DNA of 64,000 nt. Source: an uncultured Oscillospiraceae bacterium (lineage in GTDB: Bacteria; Bacillota; Clostridia; RUG12999). Of this stretch, positions 2,857-44,326 are shown in pieces. The stretch lies in assembly GCA_964418245.1 (NCBI GenBank), contig CAYQKW010000004.1, forward strand, positions 22-64,021. The letters are read 5' to 3'. The position numbers and the translations under genes are program-made. Within the stretch, counting starts at the first letter, position 1. The number at the start of each line of letters is the position of its first letter. Under the pieces are notes generated by a model. The model was not told the DNA's origin. It searched no databases and saw only the letters and a list, made by a program, of their open reading frames with translations.

Positions 2857-5730
2857 TTATTTTACTATCAGTACGGTTGTTACCACCGATGCCTGTACCG
2901 CGCAAAATATACTGTCCCCCTCGTCTATATCGGATTCTTCGGCATCAAAAACGCCGTTGCCGTTTAATATATAAATGTTTGCCGAGCTTATGTTAAAATT
3001 TCTTTTCCAATCGTTTTCCGCACTTGCTATAATCTTGCCGGGAAATCTGTTTATAACTTTGCCGAAAAATGCCGCAACATCGCCGTACATTCTTGTTTCC
3101 TCGGTGGAAACAGCATTCCCGTAGGTCCATTCATACATGGTTTGCTGACCGCTTTTATACAAAAAGCGTATGTCTGTTATTTCGTTTTTCTCGTCAACGG
3201 CAAACTGAATCACATCGCCTTTTTTGATTTTTTCGCCGCTTCCGTCCGGCGTTAAGCATTTATCGGTATATCCGTCAAAACCTATATTGAGTTTTGCATT
3301 ATCCGGAGATATTATATATGTTTTTTTGGTTCCGCCGATTATACCCGTAACCTCAATTGCGCGGTCTCCGTCGGCATTGAGCGAATATCCCGATGAAGTG
3401 ACTGTGAACGGCGAAGATGCAAACGTCAGAGTGCTGAGTTCGCTGTCTTTTTCGTAGACAACAACAACTTCGGGTTCGTATTTTTCATCGCAGTCATAAA
3501 TTTTTACGTTGTATATCCGCGTGTTTACAATAACATTTTTGTTTTTTGTTTTATATCCGAAATCATATTCGGCGTCCTGCGGAATTATGAATATTTTTGT
3601 TTCGGGTTTTAAAGCGTAAAGCGTGGCGAATGTTCCGGCATAGCAGGTGTTTATTCCCTCAAAATTAAGAGTTGCCGCCGCTATTTCTTTAACAAGTCCG
3701 TCCGACCTTTTTTTGAGTTTGACCAAGTTGCCGGGCACAAGATTATCTTTGCCGCTTGCTGATTTTTCAACCCAAAGAATCTCCGGTTCTCCGCGTTCGG
3801 TAAGCGCTTTTATTTCAATTTCTCCGCTCATACCGTCGGCAACACCGACTTTTATTATATATGCATAGGAATCATTGTTTTTCACATCGCACCAAACAAT
3901 TTGCCTGTCGCGGTCAAAATAGAAATCTCCGCCGTCACCTGGCGACAATACGCAATTGTTTTTAAAATATCGGCTGATTTTATATCCGACAGAATAAATT
4001 GTAATTTCATCATCGGTTATGCTTTCGGCATTGCCGATAACAACGTCGTTTGTTATATCGGCATATACACATTTGCCGCCGAGGCTTTTTGCAATTTGAA
4101 CAACCTCGTTTGCGTATATTTTTGTATCAGAGGTTTCTTCTCCGTCGCGGAAAATACGGACGTATTCCGCGCTTTCGGCGTCAACGCCGAATTTTCCGGA
4201 AAATCTGTCGAAAATATCACCGTCAAGACTTCCGTCGGCTTTGGGCATATAAGTATAATAGCTTTTTATGATTACAAATTCGTCGTCTATGACTTTGATT
4301 TCACCGGAGTGGGGGAGTAAGTCCGAAAAGTTTATATCCGCAATTTTTCCGGCAAATTCGCCGTTGTATATAACACGCATTTCTCTGTTTAAAGCTTTGC
4401 TTTGCGTATCGCTTTTCAATTTCCCGTTTCGATATTCAAGAGAATCCGAGGCGTTGAAAATCGCAGTATCATCCGATTTATCCGTAAAAAATATAACGGT
4501 ATCGTCATTTATGTATATTTCAAGATTATGTCCGAGATATTCCGCAATATTCGGAACGGCATTTTTGTATATTATGTTTCCGCATACAATATTGCCTTTT
4601 AAAATACCGCTTTCACCCACGGTTGATGATATTCCGTTGTCTGTAAGCCGCCCTTTTGCGGTGCTGACGTTAAAAGCATTGTATAAAAGTGTGTTTGTTT
4701 TTTGATATTCCGTGGTTTTGCCGTAAGACACGGCTTCAAACATCTTTGTTTTCAGTGCCTTTGCGAAAAGCCGCGCGGCTTCGCCGCGAGTGAAATTTTC
4801 GGCATATGGCAGGTTAAGTTCGGCGGCAATGCTTAAATATCCGTTCGGGAATCCGCCTTTCAGCTCTGCAAGCGGACCGTATCCCAATATTTTCACAACG
4901 GTTTTTATCGCTTGAGCGTATGTTGTGTTATCTTCCGGACAAAAGTTTTTGTCCTGCGAAACAACAGAAGCCTCGACAAGATAATTCACATAAGGTGCAT
5001 ACCATTCGTCTTTGTTCACATCGGTGAAATATGTATATCCTTTAAGCGATACGGCAAACTCTGCATTCCCTGTGAGTTTAACCGCCGCCGCCGCAAATTC
5101 AGCTCTTGAAACAGGCTCGTCCGGACGGTAGCTTTTATCTTCAAATCCACTCAGAACACCAAGGGTTTTGAGTAATTTAACGTCGTTCTCGTACTTTGTT
5201 CCGATTACGTCAAAAAGGTCTGCTTTTGCGGTTTCAATTCCGCATTTTACGGAACGTATTGCCGGATTCCACGAATTTCCGCTTAAATTCGCAAATTCAA
5301 TTTTCACAAAATGTGTGCCGTACTGCTTTACCGTATAGTCGATTATATACCATTTGCCGGATTCTTTCTCGTGTATTTTTATTTTCGGTTTAACCGCACG
5401 GAAATTTTCGCCGTCATCCGATACATAAAAATTAAAGTGCGATATTGCCTCGCCGTCCCAGAAATATGTGCTGACGGTTAAATTTTCATCTGTTTTGTAC
5501 ACAATCCATTCCGCACCCAAAGCCGTTCTTTGAAAATATGTGAAATCTTCGGTGAAACTGTTTTGTTCTTCGTTTTGGGCAACGGAAGCAACAAGATTTT
5601 CACTTTTTGCATAAAGATTCAAAAAGTCGGTGCAGTCATCTCCGGAAAAAACATCGGTTTCCGCAAAAACAGCATTGCCGCTCGAAACAAGCGTAAATAT
5701 AAAAATCAATAAAAATACAATCTTTTTCAT
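2857..5730 (-). CDS. large secreted S-layer-homology (SLH) domain protein, function unknown
   Basis: 957 aa. Signal peptide MKKIVFLLIFIFTLVSSGNAVFA. Three SLH-like repeats around residues 190-330 (FEDKSYRPDEPVSRAEFAAAAVKL...; FTDVNKDEWYAPYVNYL...; ...NFTRGEAARLFAKAL). Long C-terminal region of unknown function. Confidence 0.6.
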   Translation of the reverse strand: MKKIVFLLIFIFTLVSSGNAVFAETDVFSGDDCTDFLNLYAKSENLVASVAQNEEQNSFTEDFTYFQRTALGAEWIVYKTDENLTVSTYFWDGEAISHFNFYVSDDGENFRAVKPKIKIHEKESGKWYIIDYTVKQYGTHFVKIEFANLSGNSWNPAIRSVKCGIETAKADLFDVIGTKYENDVKLLKTLGVLSGFEDKSYRPDEPVSRAEFAAAAVKLTGNAEFAVSLKGYTYFTDVNKDEWYAPYVNYLVEASVVSQDKNFCPEDNTTYAQAIKTVVKILGYGPLAELKGGFPNGYLSIAAELNLPYAENFTRGEAARLFAKALKTKMFEAVSYGKTTEYQKTNTLLYNAFNVSTAKGRLTDNGISSTVGESGILKGNIVCGNIIYKNAVPNIAEYLGHNLEIYINDDTVIFFTDKSDDTAIFNASDSLEYRNGKLKSDTQSKALNREMRVIYNGEFAGKIADINFSDLLPHSGEIKVIDDEFVIIKSYYTYMPKADGSLDGDIFDRFSGKFGVDAESAEYVRIFRDGEETSDTKIYANEVVQIAKSLGGKCVYADITNDVVIGNAESITDDEITIYSVGYKISRYFKNNCVLSPGDGGDFYFDRDRQIVWCDVKNNDSYAYIIKVGVADGMSGEIEIKALTERGEPEILWVEKSASGKDNLVPGNLVKLKKRSDGLVKEIAAATLNFEGINTCYAGTFATLYALKPETKIFIIPQDAEYDFGYKTKNKNVIVNTRIYNVKIYDCDEKYEPEVVVVYEKDSELSTLTFASSPFTVTSSGYSLNADGDRAIEVTGIIGGTKKTYIISPDNAKLNIGFDGYTDKCLTPDGSGEKIKKGDVIQFAVDEKNEITDIRFLYKSGQQTMYEWTYGNAVSTEETRMYGDVAAFFGKVINRFPGKIIASAENDWKRNFNISSANIYILNGNGVFDAEESDIDEGDSIFCAVQASVVTTVLIVK

Positions 5731-20957: not shown

Positions 20958-20986
20958 CCGCATTTTCGGGCAGATGTTATCCGCCC
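20958..20986 (-). repeat. recurrent 3'-end hairpin motif (copy B); putative terminator of the kinase-RRE-peptidase cassette
   Basis: ccgcattttc-gggcaga-tgtta-tccgccc. On the transcribed (minus) strand this reads gggcggataacatctgccc with a G-U wobble, then gaaaatgcgg, exactly as in copy A. Confidence 0.5.
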
Positions 20987-21035
20987 GGAAATGCGTAAGT
21001 GTTTTTGTGGTAATTATGCATTCGCAATACCGTAT

Positions 21036-21206
21036 TTACGGATACATGGGAATGTCTTCTCCGGATTTGCTTCGGGAACTTATGTTTTCGGCAAGATTTT
21101 TAAGTTCCTTGATGTTGTTGAATGTTGCGCCGCTCTGTATTATTGTTTCTTGAATGAACGACGGCAATGATTTGAAATACATTTCCGTATCGTTTTCAAA
21201 TTTCAT
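21036..21206 (-). CDS. 56-aa hypothetical protein, candidate substrate/precursor of the upstream kinase-RRE-peptidase genes
   Basis: Not in the ORF track (below 60 aa). Hand translation: MKFENDTEMYFKSLPSFIQETIIQSGATFNNIKELKNLAENISSRSKSGEDIPMYP. SD GAGGTGA lies 7 nt upstream and overlaps the stop of the peptidase gene. Confidence 0.5.
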   Translation of the reverse strand: MKFENDTEMYFKSLPSFIQETIIQSGATFNNIKELKNLAENISSRSKSGEDIPMYP

Positions 21207-21227
21207 AAAGCCTTCACCTCGGCTTTA

Positions 21228-21695
21228 TTATATCCGTTTTTTTCGCCGTTTATTCCTGTGTATTCTTTTCATCGCACATTTCATCATAAAAGGACGCAGA
21301 AATATAAAATTCGTCCATATATGCACAAGAAGATTGTATTTGAAGTCGTTTATGCCGATTATCGAACCGCGTCTTTCAAGTGCTGTTGCCGCCGCAACAA
21401 TCTGATTTTCGTGTATCGGATATTCAATATCCGTCTGATTATCCCCACAAAGTTTAAAATCACCGTTTTTTGTTCCGACTATTCTGTGCAGTACATAATG
21501 CCCGTTGTCACGTTTGTACAATATTATATCATATTTTTTGTATTTGCTTTTGCGTTCAAGAAAAACGCTGTCTCTCTGCTCAATCAGGGTGGGATACATA
21601 CTGTTGCCGCGCACTTTGAATTTAACCCGATTGCCGTTTTTTAAGCTTTCTTCGATAATCGGGATCATTTCCGAAATATCAACTTCATTCTTCAT
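21228..21695 (-). CDS. soluble S26 signal-peptidase-I-like protein (Ser/His, SipW/ER-type configuration)
   Basis: Ser box VRGNSMYPTL. ...HYVLHRIVG has a His where P-type SPases and LexA carry the general-base Lys. No N-terminal TM anchor. Start ambiguous (21668-21767); the ORF-track start would overlap the PqqD gene by 83 nt. Confidence 0.55.
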   Translation of the reverse strand: MKNEVDISEMIPIIEESLKNGNRVKFKVRGNSMYPTLIEQRDSVFLERKSKYKKYDIILYKRDNGHYVLHRIVGTKNGDFKLCGDNQTDIEYPIHENQIVAAATALERRGSIIGINDFKYNLLVHIWTNFIFLRPFMMKCAMKRIHRNKRRKKRI

Positions 21696-21960
21696 ATTCA
21701 ATAATTCCGTTTTTATCCAAAACCGCAATAAATTCGTCTGTATCTTTTCCGGCTTCTTCTTTTTCAACTCCGGTATATTCGTGCATCAAAGCTTCAATAA
21801 GTTCTTCGCGTGTTTTGTGTTCTTTCAAGCATTCCCACAAAAACGCACCGGTCTCGTTGAGTGTTATCATTCCGTTAAAATCGACAAGGTCATTGCCCAT
21901 GGGGATAACAACGTTACTGCCGGCAAGATTTCTCATAACAAATGTACTTTTTATTTTCAT
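21685..21960 (-). CDS. PqqD-family protein (RiPP recognition element)
   Basis: About 91 aa. MKIKSTFVMRNLAGSNVVIPMG...LNETGAFLWECL...EELIEAL...FIAVLDKNGII is a canonical PqqD/RRE fold signature. SD AAGGAG lies 9 nt before the second ATG. The first ATG (21978) overlaps the kinase stop (TAATG). Confidence 0.75.
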   Translation of the reverse strand: MKIKSTFVMRNLAGSNVVIPMGNDLVDFNGMITLNETGAFLWECLKEHKTREELIEALMHEYTGVEKEEAGKDTDEFIAVLDKNGIIEYEE

Positions 21961-21977
21961 TGTAAAATTCTCCTTCA

Positions 21978-22907
21978 TTATTCACCGAAAACCGTATTTT
22001 TCACAAGCTGTGCTGCCTCGTGCGATATGTTGCAGCCAAGCATATATATCGGAACAGAGGTTAAAAGTTCGGAAACGAAATTCAGTGTTTTTTCAAGTTT
22101 ATCTTCAAAAACAGGACGCCGTACTTCTTTTAAAACAAGAAACAAAGCTTCTTGAGCACTCAATCTTCTTATGTTGTTTTTTTCACTGCGACTCAACATT
22201 ACAACAGCTTTTAACGGTGCGGATACATTATGGTTAATGTGCGTTTTGCCGCTCCACGGTGTGCCGTGAACAAAAAAACCGTCCGCTTCTGAACTGAGTG
22301 CCGGGGTGTCGTCGTTAATCATTACAACATCATCTTTAAAGCATTCGCACCAAAGCGATGTGTGGGTTGATTTTCCGGTACCCGACGGTGCGGAAAACAA
22401 AATCCCTTCACCTTTATACATAAGGCTTGACGAATGCATTACAATCCCCGAATGTTCAAGTATAAAATACTTAAAAAGATCCCCAAGCATATTAACGCTT
22501 CTTATATCGTTGCCGACACCGCCGTATTTAACAATATCGACTGCGGACATACGTGCGTTTTTTATATTTTTATCAAACTCAATCGACGCGACGTATTCGT
22601 CTTCGTCGCATATGTCATAAATCCCGAAACCGTCGTCGCGGCTGTAGTACTTTCTGAAATCGTGTTCAAATGCCACCAATTTTCCCGAAGGAGCGTCAAT
22701 TTTTGTTTTTTCGGAATATTCAACCGTTAAATCCGCATTTTCAAACGGGGCAACTTTATATTCCGCAAATTCCCCTCGGGAATATTCGGTATCAATCCCG
22801 GATACCGCAATATTAAAACCGGCAATATTATAATATAACATAAGATTATTCACTCCGAAATACCGACGAAACCAAAGTTGCGCGGCAAAATATTTTGATG
22901 ATTGCAT
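21978..22907 (-). CDS. HPr-kinase/phosphorylase C-domain-like putative peptide kinase
   Basis: 309 aa. C-terminal half has an HprK_C-like P-loop, HSSSLMYKGEGILFSAPSGTGKSTHTSLW...VMINDD. An alternative start at Met23 (22841) has SD GGAGTG. Confidence 0.6.
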   Translation of the reverse strand: MQSSKYFAAQLWFRRYFGVNNLMLYYNIAGFNIAVSGIDTEYSRGEFAEYKVAPFENADLTVEYSEKTKIDAPSGKLVAFEHDFRKYYSRDDGFGIYDICDEDEYVASIEFDKNIKNARMSAVDIVKYGGVGNDIRSVNMLGDLFKYFILEHSGIVMHSSSLMYKGEGILFSAPSGTGKSTHTSLWCECFKDDVVMINDDTPALSSEADGFFVHGTPWSGKTHINHNVSAPLKAVVMLSRSEKNNIRRLSAQEALFLVLKEVRRPVFEDKLEKTLNFVSELLTSVPIYMLGCNISHEAAQLVKNTVFGE

Positions 22908-22923
22908 ATATATCTATATTATA

Positions 22924-22952
22924 TTGTACCACATTCGCATATTTTTGTCAAT
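22924..22952 (-). promoter_or_regulatory. sigma-A-type promoter for the kinase-RRE-peptidase cassette
   Basis: On minus: TTGACA - 17 nt (aaaatatgcgaatgtgg) - TACAAT, 17-20 nt upstream of the first ATG of the kinase ORF. Confidence 0.55.
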
Positions 22953-41749: not shown

Positions 41750-42813
41750 TTTCCGCCTTCCTTTCTTACAGCTATTTTATAATCTCCGAAGAAATCAAAT
41801 GCAAGTATCACAAAAAGTATAATTCCCTCAAGCACGTTGGCAACCTCTGTTGAAAGTCCCATTGTGCTTTGCATAACATTGCTTCCTTTTTCGAGTATCG
41901 CAAGCAGCATAGATATTACAATACATACGAACGGATTAAGACGAGAAAGCCATGCCACGATAATCGCTGTGAATCCAACGCCGCCGGCAACGCTTTCGCC
42001 CAATGTGAAAGCAACTCCCGAAACCTGTATAACACCTGCAATTCCGCAGATTGCTCCGCTTAAAAACATTGTTCTGATTACGATTTTATTAACGTTCATG
42101 CCGGCATATCTTGCAGTGTTTTTGCTATCGCCGACAACGCTTATTTCATATCCGTTTTTTGTATAATTAAGATATATAAACACAACAACGCAAAGTACGA
42201 GAGCAATTATCCATCCTGCGTGTATTCCGCCGACTTCGGCAAGTCTGGCATTTGTAACAAAAGTGGCTATTTTCTGGAATCCCGTTGATTTTGGGTCTTT
42301 CCAGGGGCCTTGAGTTAAAAATACAATTATGTTTAATGCTATGTAGTTAAGCATAAGCGTGAAAAGTGTTTCGTTGGTATCGTATTTGCATTTGAAATAT
42401 GCCGGTATCGCACCGAGAACACCGCCGCCAACGGCACCTGCCGCAAACATTATGAGCATAAGCGGCAAATGGGGTAAATCCGCATGGAAAAGTGCAAAAT
42501 ACGAAGCGAAAATACCGCCCATTATAATTTGTCCCTCGGCACCGATGTTCCAGAATTTCATTTTGAATGCCAAACTCACTCCGAGTGCCGTTATCAAAAG
42601 CGGAATTGCGATTTTAATTGTTGCAACCGTCGCCATTTTGCTTCTGAAAGCTCCCGAAATAATAGCCGAATACACTTCAATCGGATTTTTGCCTATAAGC
42701 GCAATAAATATTCCGCCGAGCAAAATTGCGAAAACAAACGCAAACGCCGAAAGTGCCGCACGTTTTGTGCTTGAAATGCTCTTACGTTTTACAACATGAA
42801 GTTTTTTATTCAT
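41746..42813 (-). CDS. ABC transporter permease (NupP/YufP-like)
   Basis: 355-aa polytopic protein, 4-nt overlap with the next permease. Confidence 0.75.
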   Translation of the reverse strand: MNKKLHVVKRKSISSTKRAALSAFAFVFAILLGGIFIALIGKNPIEVYSAIISGAFRSKMATVATIKIAIPLLITALGVSLAFKMKFWNIGAEGQIIMGGIFASYFALFHADLPHLPLMLIMFAAGAVGGGVLGAIPAYFKCKYDTNETLFTLMLNYIALNIIVFLTQGPWKDPKSTGFQKIATFVTNARLAEVGGIHAGWIIALVLCVVVFIYLNYTKNGYEISVVGDSKNTARYAGMNVNKIVIRTMFLSGAICGIAGVIQVSGVAFTLGESVAGGVGFTAIIVAWLSRLNPFVCIVISMLLAILEKGSNVMQSTMGLSTEVANVLEGIILFVILAFDFFGDYKIAVRKEGGK

Positions 42814-44326
42814 CTTCGGGTTCCTCCTTTTTTTCGGCAGCTGTCATCATAAGCCCGATTTTTTCTTTTGTGGCTTCGCCGGCTTTCAAAATACCCGTTA
42901 CTTCGCCGTGACAAAGCACCATAATTCTGTCGCAAAGTTCAAGCATAACGTCCAAATCCTCGCCGATGAAAAGAACCGCCGTTCCTTTTTGTTTCTGCTC
43001 GTTAAGTAAATCATATATAAGATAAGAGGAGTTTATATCAAGTCCTCGAACGGGATATGCGGTTATAAGCACATTGGGACATGAACCGATTTCTCTGCCG
43101 AGAAGTACTTTTTGAACATTTCCGCCCGAAAGCGTTTTAACGGGAGTGTATATATCGGGAGTGGATATACTGAGTTCGGACACAAGCTCGTTTGCTGTTT
43201 TTTTAGCTTCTTTTTTGCTTAAAAACGGGCTTTTGCCGTTTGAATAATTCTTAAGCAGCATATTATCGAGTATGCCCATTGAGCCGGCAAGCCCCATTCC
43301 GAGCCTGTCCTCCGGAATGAAACTCATGCTTATTCCGAGATTTATTATTTCCTGCGGAGTTTTGCCGACAATATTTACTTTTTTATGAAGAATTGCACCC
43401 TCATCAACCGGGATAAGTCCGGCAATCGCTTCGCAAAGCTGTTTCTGACCGCTTCCGGCAACACCGGCAACCCCCAGAATTTCGCCGGCATGGAGATTGA
43501 AAGTGACGTCTTTCAAAGCCGTTACGCCATCGCTGTTTTTAACCGTGAGCCGATATATTTCCAAAAGTTTTCCGCTGTGGTTCCGTTTGGGGCGGTCGAT
43601 GGAAAACTCAAGACTTTTGCCCACCATAAGCTCGGCAAGTCCTTTAACATCTTTTTCGCTTGTTTTAACGGTTTCGATACATTCGCCCTTACGCAATACG
43701 GTTACCCTATCGCTGATTTCTTTAACTTCCGCAAGCTTGTGAGTGATTATTATTATCGCACAGCCGTCGTTTTTCATATTTCTTAAAATATCGAAAAGTT
43801 TTGTTGTTTCCTGAGGAGTAAGAACTGCGGTAGGCTCGTCCAAAATAAGGATTTTTGCACCTCTGTACAGAACTTTTAAAATCTCCACGGTTTGCTTTTC
43901 CGATACGGACATATCATATATTTTTTTATTGGGGTCAATATCGAGTTTATATTTTTCACTTAAACGTTTAACCTCGTCTATTCTGCCCTTTTTCAAGAAA
44001 AAACTTTGTTTTGAACCGAGTATGATATTATCTGCCGCCGTGTAGTTTTCAACAAGCTTGAAATGCTGATGTATCATGCCTATTCCGAGTTTTAACGCAT
44101 CTTCCGGACTGTTTATTGCAACGTTTTCGCCGTTTACGGAAATCTCACCGCCGTCCGGTTTATAAATACCGGCAAGAATATTCATGAGCGTTGTTTTTCC
44201 GGAACCGTTTTCGCCCAGCAACGCCAGAATTTCACCGCCGTGTACATCCAAATTGATATTTTTGTTTGCAACGGTTTGTCCGAATGTTTTTGTAATGTTT
44301 TTCAGTTGTATCGAAACATTATCCAT
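42806..44326 (-). CDS. ABC transporter ATP-binding protein with duplicated ATPase domains (NupO/YufO-like)
   Basis: 506 aa, two Walker A motifs (GENGSGKTT; GVAGSGQKQ) plus signature motifs. Confidence 0.8.
   Translation of the reverse strand: MDNVSIQLKNITKTFGQTVANKNINLDVHGGEILALLGENGSGKTTLMNILAGIYKPDGGEISVNGENVAINSPEDALKLGIGMIHQHFKLVENYTAADNIILGSKQSFFLKKGRIDEVKRLSEKYKLDIDPNKKIYDMSVSEKQTVEILKVLYRGAKILILDEPTAVLTPQETTKLFDILRNMKNDGCAIIIITHKLAEVKEISDRVTVLRKGECIETVKTSEKDVKGLAELMVGKSLEFSIDRPKRNHSGKLLEIYRLTVKNSDGVTALKDVTFNLHAGEILGVAGVAGSGQKQLCEAIAGLIPVDEGAILHKKVNIVGKTPQEIINLGISMSFIPEDRLGMGLAGSMGILDNMLLKNYSNGKSPFLSKKEAKKTANELVSELSISTPDIYTPVKTLSGGNVQKVLLGREIGSCPNVLITAYPVRGLDINSSYLIYDLLNEQKQKGTAVLFIGEDLDVMLELCDRIMVLCHGEVTGILKAGEATKEKIGLMMTAAEKKEEPEDE

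What the first reader, a model, noticed from the sequence alone, without database searches (positions are those of the whole stretch)
20958..22952. Self-contained HPr-kinase-like / PqqD-RRE / soluble SipW-type peptidase / 56-aa ORF cassette with no cyclase, B2 protease, radical-SAM enzyme or exporter: candidate undescribed peptide phosphorylation/maturation system
Seen in the sequence: a minus-strand unit runs from a strong promoter (TTGACA-17-TACAAT, 22924-22952) to a hairpin (20958-20986). Its genes, in order, are as follows. (1) A 309-aa protein whose C-terminal half has the HPr kinase/phosphorylase C-domain P-loop (FSAPSGTGKSTHTSLW ... MINDD). (2) A PqqD-family protein, stop/start coupled by TAATG, with the canonical RRE signature (VMRNLAGSNVVIP ... 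LNETGAFLWE). (3) An S26 signal-peptidase-like protein with Ser box VRGNSMYPTL, a His in YVLHRIVG at the position of the general-base Lys (SipW/ER-type chemistry), and no membrane anchor. (4) An RBS-coupled 56-aa ORF that is invisible to the ORF track. Established knowledge: HPrK-like kinase plus PqqD pairs occur in Firmicute lasso-peptide clusters (paeninodin type), where the kinase phosphorylates the precursor's C-terminal Ser. There, however, they accompany an asparagine-synthetase-like cyclase, a transglutaminase-like B2 protease and an ABC exporter. None of those, and no radical-SAM/YcaO/LanB-type enzyme, is present here. The flanks are ybaK/feoAB on one side and an hxlR/flavodoxin pair on the other. 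An S26-family peptidase as the proteolytic partner of an RRE is, to my knowledge, not a described RiPP architecture. Inference: the cassette may recognise a peptide via the RRE, phosphorylate it and trim it, giving a linear phosphopeptide signal or toxin. Alternatively the kinase-RRE pair may regulate the peptidase.
Basis: partly seen in the sequence, partly recalled or inferred. Interest (0 to 1): 0.8.

Follow-up and report, generated by a model that had tools for sequence, protein, structure and literature searches.

The report
Minimal phosphopeptide (LPP-type) maturation cassette

Summary
The genes, promoter and hairpin are all present, with corrected starts. The kinase-like protein (287 aa) has an HprK/PEPCK P-loop fold. 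The 91-aa protein is a PqqD-type RRE. The 155-aa protein is a soluble SipW/archaeal-type Ser-His-acid peptidase.

This kinase-RRE-peptidase order recurs across Clostridia. In 48 well-flanked loci it was often followed by an MsbA-like exporter and an NTP_transf_5 gene, and sometimes joined by a radical SAM enzyme. I saw no lasso cyclase or B2 protease. In 16 of the 48 loci a small YxxP-leader precursor gene lies beside the kinase.

This architecture was published as the LPP (linear polyphosphorylated peptide) RiPP family (Popov et al., Nat Commun 2026, PMC13381572). There LppK polyphosphorylates a core Ser, and the SpI-like LppS removes the leader once the RRE LppB presents it.

The window carries only K-B-S. 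No YxxP precursor, exporter or NTP transferase occurs in its 64 kb. The 56-aa ORF is a real gene. However, it belongs to a widespread small-protein family that is otherwise never found next to such cassettes, so it is probably not the substrate.

All four genes are under purifying selection. Verdict: a new, reduced Clostridial variant of a known kind, probably acting on a precursor encoded elsewhere.

The parts
22923..22951 (-). Sigma-70-type promoter, TTGACA-17 nt-TACAAT with a TG extended -10
   Evidence: 11 of 12 matches, the best site in the region. It gives a 5' UTR of about 75 nt before the 287-aa start, which has a GGAG ribosome-binding site.
21978..22841 (-). LppK-like kinase, Pfam PF27840 'ScmC' (287 aa). 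HprK/PEPCK-type P-loop FSAPSGTGKSTHT, followed by INDD and GTPWSGK motifs. The mechanical ORF runs on to 22907.
   Evidence: 4391 homologs, the listed ones mostly 280-300 aa; invariant P-loop. AlphaFold2 pLDDT 94.7, with PEP carboxykinase and HprK/P as top Foldseek hits (E 6e-6 to 1e-4); best NCBIfam hit ScmC, E = 1.8e-8, below cutoff.
21685..21960 (-). Discrete PqqD-type RiPP recognition element, LppB-like (91 aa)
   Evidence: PF05402, E = 7e-19; best NCBIfam hits are lasso PqqD chaperones; 35% identity (E = 2e-23) to the Dehalobacter RRE next to an SpI in the published dataset; aligns with LppB and keeps N33, Y60, D70 and F74 (here N35, Y62, D73, F77); the 91-aa product is on record.
21228..21695 (-). 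LppS-like soluble archaeal/SipW-type serine peptidase (155 aa). Ser32-His70-Glu91 correspond to LppS S29-H68-D93. N-terminal helix, and C-terminal amphipathic basic helices.
   Evidence: Peptidase_S24, E = 3.6e-7; TIGR02228, E = 9e-9; 25% identity to LppS, E = 3e-12, with the catalytic residues aligned; 38% identity to SCH01704.1 (SSN cluster 9 of the paper). G-x-S-M-x-P, LHR and GD...E are invariant; pLDDT 86, LexA/signal-peptidase fold.
21036..21206 (-). 56-aa small protein gene, probably co-transcribed. It belongs to a widespread ~50-aa family and is probably not part of the maturation system.
   Evidence: conserved in four close relatives, with a variable C-terminal tail; dN/dS 0.04-0.13; 140 family representatives; absent from the other kinase loci; 34 other loci with no kinase, RRE or peptidase nearby.
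20959..20995 (-). Strong hairpin at the end of the unit, without a U-tract (a possible terminator or RNA-stabilising element)
   Evidence: -27.1 kcal/mol, z = -5.4, 0 of 200 shuffles fold as well; not called as an intrinsic terminator. A G+C-rich inverted repeat lies at the same place in L088 (sequence printed).

Best explanation
The cassette is a reduced Clostridial relative of the lpp (linear polyphosphorylated peptide, LPP) RiPP biosynthetic cluster. It encodes only the three maturation proteins, in the canonical K-B-S order.

Proposed mechanism, by homology to the experimentally studied Paenibacillus system:
1. The 91-aa RRE binds the [Y/W]xxP motif of a precursor's leader peptide.
2. The 287-aa HprK-like kinase uses ATP to add one or more phosphates to a Ser of the core.
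3. The 155-aa SpI-like Ser-His-acid peptidase docks on the RRE-leader complex through its N-terminal helix and cuts off the leader. This releases a linear phosphopeptide.

Shown here: the identity, fold and conserved catalytic or binding residues of the three proteins; the conserved gene order; purifying selection; and the presence of YxxP-leader precursors next to related cassettes.

Inferred: the chemistry, and the claim that the substrate of this particular cassette is encoded outside the 64-kb window (in trans). No precursor, exporter or NTP transferase is present in the window. The 56-aa gene is most likely an unrelated small protein that shares the transcript.
For: - Protein identities.
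- Direct comparison with the published proteins: peptidase against LppS, E = 3e-12, with S29/H68/D93 aligned to S32/H70/E91. RRE against LppB, with the Tyr-binding D70, N33 and F74 conserved. Closer matches exist to Clostridial SpI and RRE entries in the paper's Supplementary Data 1.
- Conserved K-B-S(-D-N) order in dozens of Clostridial loci. This is the order of the published lppA-K-B-S-D-N construct.
- YxxP-leader precursor genes lie beside the kinase in 16 of 48 well-flanked loci.
- The exporter is MsbA-like and the transferase is NTP_transf_5, as in the paper.
- dN/dS is 0.07-0.22 for K, B and S. The same bare triad sits in at least 8 different genomic contexts.
Against: - No YxxP-type precursor is detectable in the window or in the other triad-only loci, so the substrate is unknown.
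- There is no exporter or NTP transferase, so a secreted product is not assured.
- Similarity to the characterised LppS and LppB is low (25% and 29%). The Clostridial peptidases and RREs fall outside the SSN cluster and the RRE clade that the paper defines as LPP.
- I could not compare the kinase directly with LppK, because no sequence was available.
- The leader motif in Clostridial relatives differs downstream of YxxP from the published YxxPxVLxHQxIxFETxxS.
Confidence: 0.7

Rival explanations
1. One reading: the cassette is self-contained, and the co-transcribed 56-aa protein is the precursor. It would be bound by the RRE, phosphorylated (for example in the NISS motif) and trimmed.
For: - The ORF follows the peptidase gene by 21 nt with its own GAGGTGAAGG ribosome-binding site, and lies before the hairpin.
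- It is conserved in all four close relatives. Its N-terminal 44 residues are conserved and its C-terminal tail is variable, a leader/core-like pattern.
- It is under purifying selection.
Against: - It has no [Y/W]xxP motif (it reads YFKSLP). The precursor model scores nothing in the window better than E = 11, on an unrelated ORF.
- The family has 140 representatives. In 34 metagenome loci none has a kinase, RRE or SpI within 4 kb, and it often occurs as tandem paralogs.
- It is absent from the other kinase loci fetched (about 80), including triad-only loci of other lineages.
Confidence: 0.1
2. The triad is a decaying remnant of a once complete lpp-like cluster that lost its precursor, exporter and transferase. 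It no longer does anything.
For: - Reduced forms grade from K-B-S-D-N through K-B-S and K-B to K alone. This looks like progressive loss.
- No substrate gene was found.
Against: - dN/dS is 0.07-0.22 at dS up to about 1.8.
- All catalytic and P-loop residues are invariant.
- The promoter is near-consensus.
- The same triad is kept in at least 8 lineages with unrelated flanks.
Confidence: 0.07
3. The triad has been co-opted for a cell-internal role. Kinase plus RRE would target a cellular protein or peptide, or regulate the peptidase. The product would stay inside the cell rather than being an exported natural product.
For: - There is no exporter in the triad-only loci, and the flanks are housekeeping genes (ybaK, feoAB, pyr genes, sigma factor).
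- K-B pairs sit next to DUF1846 and GroESL genes in the Christensenellaceae loci, where the neighbouring genes recur from locus to locus.
- The published family has no known biological role either.
Against: - The RRE keeps the residues that hold a YxxP leader.
- The closest relatives with more genes are typical RiPP clusters with small precursors and exporters.
- Nothing points to a specific protein target.
Confidence: 0.13

Closest known systems
LPP (linear polyphosphorylated peptide) lpp cluster of Paenibacillus alginolyticus DSM5050: LppA/K/B/S/D/N (Popov et al., Nat Commun 2026;17:6633, PMC13381572)
   Same: - HprK-like kinase, discrete PqqD RRE and soluble archaeal-type signal-peptidase-like leader peptidase, in the same K-B-S order.
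- The peptidase catalytic positions align (S29/H68/D93 with S32/H70/E91).
- The RRE keeps the Tyr-anchoring Asp, and the Asn and Phe that hold the YxxP motif.
- No lasso cyclase or B2 protease.
- Relatives of the window cassette carry MsbA-like exporters, NTP_transf_5 genes and YxxP-leader precursors, and often lie in capsule or S-layer loci, as the paper reports for Bacilli.
   Different: - The window lacks the precursor, the exporter LppD and the NTP transferase LppN.
- Sequence identity is low (25% to LppS, 29% over 56 residues to LppB).
- The acid of the triad is Glu rather than Asp.
- The Clostridial peptidases and RREs fall in the minor SSN clusters 4 and 9 and the 'RRE others' class, which the paper listed but did not analyse.
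- The Clostridial leader consensus (MKxYxKPxhEVhxLxxxENIA, or MKKxYxxPEIEIxxFxxEDIIT) differs after YxxP from YxxPxVLxHQxIxFETxxS.
Paeninodin/pseudomycoidin-type phosphorylated lasso peptide clusters of Bacillota
   Same: HprK-like kinase that (poly)phosphorylates a Ser, a discrete B1-type PqqD RRE that reads a [Y/W]xxP leader, and (in relatives) an NTP_transf_5 transferase and an ABC exporter.
   Different: There is no asparagine-synthetase-like cyclase and no transglutaminase-like B2 protease, in the window or among the recurrent neighbours in the Clostridial loci examined. Leader removal is by a serine peptidase of the S24/S26 clan instead of a cysteine protease. The product is expected to be linear.
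SynChlorMet (SCM) cassette: ScmC (HprK-like), ScmD (PqqD-like), ScmE/ScmF radical SAM/SPASM (NCBIfam TIGR04248-04251)
   Same: The kinase's Pfam family is named after ScmC, and ScmC is its best NCBIfam hit. It is paired with a PqqD protein. Some Clostridial relatives add a radical SAM/SPASM enzyme whose best hit is ScmE, together with Cys-rich precursors.
   Different: Scores are far below the equivalog cutoffs (34 against 125 bits for ScmC; 19 against 100 bits for ScmD). The window has no radical SAM enzyme. As far as I recall (not checked here), the SCM cassette is not described with an S24-type peptidase.
SipW / archaeal- and ER-type signal peptidase I (S26B)
   Same: Ser-His(-acid) chemistry instead of a Ser-Lys dyad. 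The best NCBIfam model is TIGR02228. LexA/signal-peptidase fold.
   Different: It has no transmembrane anchor. It is cytoplasmic and RRE-dependent, with an N-terminal docking helix and C-terminal amphipathic helices. It cuts RiPP leaders, not Sec signal peptides.

Membership tests
LPP (lpp) RiPP biosynthetic cluster, Popov et al. 2026 | Soluble SpI-like (archaeal-type signal peptidase I) leader peptidase with a Ser-His-Asp triad | tested here: met
   The best NCBIfam hit is TIGR02228, the model that marks all 126 SpIs in the paper. BLASTP against LppS gives E = 3e-12, with S29, H68 and D93 aligned to S32, H70 and E91. These residues are invariant in homologs. The fold is that of the S24/S26 clan. 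The acid is Glu, not Asp.
LPP (lpp) RiPP biosynthetic cluster, Popov et al. 2026 | Discrete PqqD-type RRE encoded next to the peptidase, able to hold a YxxP leader | tested here: met
   PF05402, E = 7e-19. The gene overlaps the peptidase gene. Equivalents of LppB N33, Y60, D70 and F74 are conserved. Binding itself was not tested.
LPP (lpp) RiPP biosynthetic cluster, Popov et al. 2026 | HprK-like kinase (LppK) in the cluster | tested here: met
   P-loop protein with an HprK/PEPCK fold and weak NCBIfam hits to ScmC and HprK-related kinases A and B. It lies directly upstream of the RRE, as lppK does. I had no LppK sequence for a direct comparison.
LPP (lpp) RiPP biosynthetic cluster, Popov et al. 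2026 | Precursor peptide with a conserved YxxP-containing leader (YxxPxVLxHQxIxFETxxS) in or near the cluster | tested here: not met
   Neither the profile search nor the regular-expression search finds one in the 64 kb. Such precursors do occur next to related Clostridial cassettes.
LPP (lpp) RiPP biosynthetic cluster, Popov et al. 2026 | MsbA-like ABC exporter (LppD) | tested here: not met
   Absent from the unit. The only ABC hit in the window (42806-44326, E = 4e-60, against about 1e-200 for true neighbours) has small flanking ORFs and looks like an unrelated import-type ATPase, which I did not verify. The exporter is present in 25 of 48 related loci and is MsbA-like.
LPP (lpp) RiPP biosynthetic cluster, Popov et al. 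2026 | NTP_transf_5 nucleotidyltransferase (LppN) | tested here: not met
   No hit in the window. Present in 9 of 48 related loci.
LPP (lpp) RiPP biosynthetic cluster, Popov et al. 2026 | Peptidase in SSN cluster 1, and RRE in the LPP RRE clade | tested here: inconclusive
   I built no network or tree. By pairwise scores the peptidase is nearer to SCH01704.1 of SSN cluster 9 (38%, E = 6e-34) than to LppS (25%, E = 3e-12). The RRE is nearer to a Dehalobacter 'RRE others' entry (E = 2e-23) than to LppB (E = 1e-5). It probably belongs to a sister group.
LPP (lpp) RiPP biosynthetic cluster, Popov et al. 2026 | Polyphosphorylation of a core Ser and RRE-dependent leader cleavage | not testable with these tools
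   This needs expression and mass spectrometry.
Paeninodin-type lasso peptide cluster | Asparagine-synthetase-like macrolactam cyclase (C) and transglutaminase-like leader protease (B2) | tested here: not met
   The genes next to the cassette are ybaK, feoA/feoB and hxlR/flavodoxin. No cyclase or B2 family stood out among the recurrent neighbours of the related loci. I ran no dedicated cyclase or B2 model, and most of the window's other ORFs were not annotated.
SynChlorMet (SCM) cassette | ScmC and ScmD equivalogs together with the ScmE/ScmF radical SAM/SPASM enzymes | tested here: not met
   ScmC scores 34.1 bits against a cutoff of 125, and ScmD scores 19 against 100. My two radical SAM models hit nothing in the window.
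HPr kinase/phosphorylase (HprK/P) | Match to the Pfam HprK_C domain, and the HprK N-terminal domain | tested here: not met
   No Pfam HprK_C hit at E <= 1. Only the P-loop domain superposes (TM about 0.3-0.5, E about 4e-5). The N-terminal half is a beta-rich domain that the HprK/P matches do not cover.
Housekeeping type I signal peptidase (SipW type) | Membrane anchor placing the active site outside the membrane | tested here: not met
   I ran no transmembrane predictor. By inspection the N-terminus (MKNEVDISEMIPIIEESLKNG...) is hydrophilic and models as a helix followed by the catalytic beta-core. The C-terminal helices are amphipathic and basic.

The most novel reading that the evidence does not exclude
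The bare K-B-S triad recurs in many Clostridia with unrelated housekeeping flanks and with no precursor, exporter or transferase. It may be an autonomous system rather than a fragment of a natural-product cluster. It would be RiPP-type machinery (RRE + HprK-like kinase + cytoplasmic signal-peptidase-like protease) co-opted to phosphorylate and cleave a trans-encoded or non-canonical substrate inside the cell. The substrate could be the co-transcribed small protein or a cellular protein, and the role would be regulatory.
Probability: 0.15. Interest if true: 0.7.

Novelty: new variant of a known kind. Interest (0 to 1): 0.4.

Why it matters
The LPP class is months old. It was characterised in one Paenibacillus strain, its study was limited to Bacilli, and its biological role is unknown.

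This window and its relatives show a much larger Clostridial sister group. The kinase alone has 4391 homologs, mostly from gut and rumen metagenome-assembled genomes. These relatives show architectures the paper did not treat:
- Bare K-B-S and K-B modules.
- Radical SAM hybrids with Cys-rich precursors.
- S-layer or capsule-embedded clusters with long precursors, many ending in Ser.

For RiPP genome mining this supplies new leader motifs and a test case for whether such modules work in trans. For this window itself, the practical result is a confident annotation of three 'hypothetical' genes and removal of the claim that the architecture is undescribed.

Tried and rejected
- **Pfam HprK_C for the kinase.** No hit. 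The relationship shows only through PF27840/ScmC and the fold search.
- **The 56-aa ORF as precursor.** Rejected as the leading idea after the profile search, the context scan of 34 metagenome loci and its absence from the other kinase loci. Pfam and NCBIfam give it no family.
- **A cis precursor in the window and in triad-only loci.** Two leader profiles, a listing of all small ORFs around the cassettes, and a [YW]xxPx[LVIFAM] search found nothing credible.
- **A split lasso cluster.** No cyclase or B2 family appeared among the recurrent neighbours.
- **Surface or SLH proteins as substrates.** I noticed large SLH and secreted proteins next to many cassettes and considered a dedicated sorting system for them. 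I dropped the idea once small YxxP precursors were found in the same loci, and because the paper reports the same capsule-locus neighbourhood.
- **Wasted or failed calls.** The literature search on 'ScmC/SynChlorMet' returned only unrelated acronyms. The RRE-Finder and radical SAM compendium papers do not mention this architecture. The first metagenome scan with the 30-sequence small-protein alignment failed for lack of a conserved stretch. A look-up of P0001 to name the source assembly found nothing. The source organism therefore remains unnamed; the kinase's homologs come mostly from Clostridia metagenome-assembled genomes.


Full report
**Observation**

- A near-consensus promoter, TTGACA-17-TACAAT with a TG extended -10, lies at 22951..22923. 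It scores 11 of 12 and is the best site in the region.
- A strong hairpin closes the unit at about 20959-20995 (-27.1 kcal/mol, z = -5.4). It has no U-tract, and the terminator scan did not call it.
- Between them lie four genes, whose starts need correcting.
  - The kinase-like gene most likely starts at ATG 22841 (287 aa). Its database homologs are mostly 280-300 aa. That start has a GGAG site, whereas the 309-aa ORF would begin only about 9 nt after the expected transcription start.
  - The PqqD gene starts at 21960 (91 aa) behind AAGGAG, and this exact product is on record. It is therefore not TAATG-coupled to the kinase stop.
  - The peptidase gene starts at ATG 21695 (155 aa) and overlaps the PqqD stop by 11 nt.
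  - The 56-aa ORF (21206..21036) follows after 21 nt with its own ribosome-binding site.

**What the proteins are**

*Kinase.* Pfam HprK_C does not hit at E <= 1. Its precomputed Pfam family is PF27840 'ScmC'. The best NCBIfam hits are ScmC (E = 1.8e-8) and HprK-related kinases A and B, all far below cutoff. An alignment of 30 homologs shows an invariant FSAPSGTGKSTH P-loop, an NDD motif and GTPWSGK. An AlphaFold2 model built on that alignment is very confident (pLDDT 94.7). Its top PDB matches are PEP carboxykinases and HprK/P (E 6e-6 to 1e-4). It is therefore an HprK/PEPCK-fold P-loop enzyme with its own beta-rich N-terminal domain.

*RRE.* The 91-aa protein is a clear PqqD domain (PF05402, E = 7e-19). 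It is closest to the lasso-type PqqD chaperones in NCBIfam.

*Peptidase.* The 155-aa protein matches Peptidase_S24 (E = 3.6e-7) and, best of all, archaeal-type signal peptidase I, TIGR02228 (E = 9e-9). G-x-S-M-x-P, L-H-R and G-D-x5-E are invariant in the family. Its model (pLDDT 86) has the LexA/signal-peptidase fold, with an N-terminal helix and two C-terminal amphipathic basic helices, and no membrane anchor.

**Comparative genomics**

The kinase has 4391 database homologs. The few that carry a source name are called 'hypothetical', and they come mostly from Clostridia metagenome-assembled genomes. I fetched 80 genome loci plus contexts for individual homologs. I scored them with my own HMMs.

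Of 48 non-redundant loci with enough flank:

| Gene beside the kinase | Loci (of 48) |
|---|---|
| PqqD gene | 38 |
| S24-type peptidase | 26 |
| ~555-aa ABC exporter | 25 |
| ~400-aa NTP_transf_5 protein | 9 |
| Radical SAM enzyme (SPASM type in the Ruminiclostridium group) | 6 |

- The ABC exporter is MsbA-like (best hit TIGR02203). The NTP_transf_5 protein is PF14907.
- The usual order is K-B-S-D-N.
- I saw no asparagine-synthetase-like cyclase or B2 protease among the recurrent neighbours, though I ran no dedicated model for them.
- The bare K-B-S triad recurs with unrelated flanks in the window, L005, L064, L069, L083, L123, L124 and L125. It is therefore a real, recurrent architecture.

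**Precursors**

In the radical SAM loci, the ~500-bp gap before the kinase holds tandem small ORFs with a shared leader and Cys-rich cores. An example is MKNYIKPVFEAIELKTEERLAGSCGGWNVGSCPVPEE.

A profile built from these found further precursors, nearly all just upstream of the kinase, in many loci:

- 50-67-aa peptides of the form MKxYxKPxhxVhxLxxxENIAAvPkTvYK..., many ending in Ser. These occur in Congzhengia-type clusters embedded among SLH, Wzz, CpsD and VanZ genes.
- Short peptides of the form MKKxYxxPEIEIxxFxxEDIITxSG.

All carry the YxxP motif known from lasso leaders.

None is found in the window (best E = 11) or in the other triad-only loci. A [YW]xxPx[LVIFAM] scan of the window's intergenic ORFs gave only one unconvincing hit, without a ribosome-binding site.

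**The 56-aa ORF**

It is a genuine gene. It is conserved in the four closest relatives, with about 90% identity over the first 44 residues and a variable tail. Its dN/dS is 0.04-0.13.

A profile search shows that it belongs to a broad family of ~50-aa proteins (140 representatives). The consensus reads ..EMQEYFDSLPKFVQESIMQSGVEFNSLEELKSLAENL... It has no Pfam family. In 34 metagenome loci carrying family members there is no kinase, RRE or peptidase within 4 kb, and the gene often occurs as two or three tandem paralogs. It is absent from all other kinase loci. It is therefore most likely a bystander on the same transcript, not the substrate.

**Literature**

[quoted passage not shown] - Its core genes are an SpI-like peptidase (LppS), a discrete RRE (LppB), an HprK-like kinase (LppK), an NTP transferase (LppN) and an MsbA-like exporter (LppD).
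- Its precursors carry YxxPxVLxHQxIxFETxxS.
- Expression of lppA-K-B-S-D-N in B. subtilis gave a precursor with 1-4 phosphates on core Ser3. The phosphates were absent in the lppK deletion.
- Leader cleavage required LppS (catalytic S29, H68, D93) and LppB.
- They state that SpI-like peptidases had not been described in RiPP pathways before.
- The clusters often lie in capsule loci, and the biological role is unknown.

Their Supplementary Data 1 lists Clostridial SpIs in minor network clusters. Cluster 4 holds Dehalobacter and Anaerocolumna entries, and cluster 9 holds an uncultured Ruminococcus entry. Their RREs are classed as 'others' and their precursors as not determined. The paper does not analyse them, and the main text mentions neither Clostridia nor radical SAM enzymes.

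**Direct comparison with the published proteins**

| Window protein | Compared with | Result |
|---|---|---|
| Peptidase | LppS | 25% identity, E = 3e-12; Ser32, His70 and Glu91 fall on S29, H68 and D93; Phe45 falls on the conserved F42 |
| Peptidase | SCH01704.1 (cluster 9) | 38% identity, E = 6e-34 |
| RRE | Dehalobacter RRE | 35% identity, E = 2e-23 |
| RRE | LppB | 29% identity over 56 residues, E = 1e-5 |

The RRE keeps the equivalents of LppB N33, Y60, D70 and F74. D70 is the hydrogen-bond partner of the leader Tyr, and N33 and F74 hold the Pro. This predicts a YxxP-type ligand.

**Interpretation**

The cassette is a reduced Clostridial variant of the LPP-type pathway. The RRE should bind a YxxP leader, the kinase should phosphorylate a core Ser, and the soluble Ser-His-Glu peptidase should remove the leader from the RRE-presented precursor.

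All three genes are under purifying selection (dN/dS 0.07-0.22 at dS up to about 1.8), and they sit behind a strong promoter. A dead remnant is therefore unlikely. No precursor, exporter or NTP transferase lies in the 64 kb. The substrate is most likely encoded elsewhere in the genome. That step is inferred, not shown. The alternatives are the 56-mer as substrate, a cell-internal co-opted role, or decay. I rate these as less likely.

**Verdict**

However, the architecture is now published, the cassette is not demonstrably self-contained, and the 56-aa ORF is probably unrelated. I class the finding as a new variant of a known kind and set interest at 0.4. The remaining value lies in the large, unexplored Clostridial sister group and in the open question of what a precursor-less, exporter-less K-B-S module acts on.

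Noticed in passing
window 21036-21206 (-); L089-L122, e.g. L097 3974-4126, 4161-4355, 4602-4796: The 56-aa ORF belongs to a widespread family of ~50-aa proteins with no Pfam or NCBIfam family (consensus ..EMQEYFDSLPKFVQESIMQSGVEFNSLEELKSLAENL..; 140 clusters at 50% identity). Members occur alone or as two or three tandem paralogs in varied housekeeping contexts. Function unknown.
   Followed up: partly
L016 7608-7939, L032 7615-7917, L036 5839-6042 and 7555-7899, L043 7583-7926: Ruminiclostridium-type relatives combine the K-B-S-D(-N) set with a radical SAM/SPASM enzyme (best NCBIfam hit ScmE). They carry two or three tandem precursors that share the MKxYxKPxFExxxLxxEERxAGSC leader, mostly with Cys-rich cores (the L036 5839-6042 peptide is Gly/Trp-rich). 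This looks like a hybrid of LPP-type and SCM/sacti-type maturation, and the LPP paper does not treat it.
   Followed up: partly
L007-L010, L014, L019, L022, L030, L126 (e.g. L009 4675-15779; L126 6738-14480): Congzhengia-type clusters have the order RRE-(peptidase)-exporter-[secreted 315-570-aa protein]-precursor-kinase-SLH protein-Wzz-CpsD-VanZ. The peptidase model hit only some of these loci. Their 50-67-aa precursors read MKxYxKPxhxVhxLxxxENIAAvPkTvYK..., and many end in Ser. This echoes the capsule-locus association reported for Bacilli.
   Followed up: partly
L015, L023, L051, L053, L067, L070, L071; L027, L037, L040, L044, L049, L055, L058, L065, L075: Still more reduced forms exist. Kinase + RRE pairs without a peptidase lie next to DUF1846 (and, in several, GroES/GroEL) in a group of loci that includes Christensenellaceae genomes. 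Kinase genes with no RRE, peptidase or exporter within 6 kb make up 9 of the 48 loci.
   Followed up: no
L124 4767-5876 (-), L125 4734-5858 (-): In two unrelated triad-only loci a PGA_cap (CapA-like capsule synthesis) gene lies divergently just upstream of the kinase gene.
   Followed up: no
window 20959-20995 (-); L088 about 3430-3460: The unit ends in a long G+C-rich hairpin without a U-tract. A G+C-rich inverted repeat lies at the same position in L088. Whether it terminates transcription or stabilises the RNA is open.
   Followed up: partly
window 21228-21695 (-), residues about 119-155: The peptidase family has a conserved C-terminal pair of amphipathic helices containing an R-P-x-R motif and ending in a Lys/Arg-rich tail. 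This may mediate membrane association or docking on the exporter. It may also relate to the poor solubility reported for LppS.
   Followed up: no
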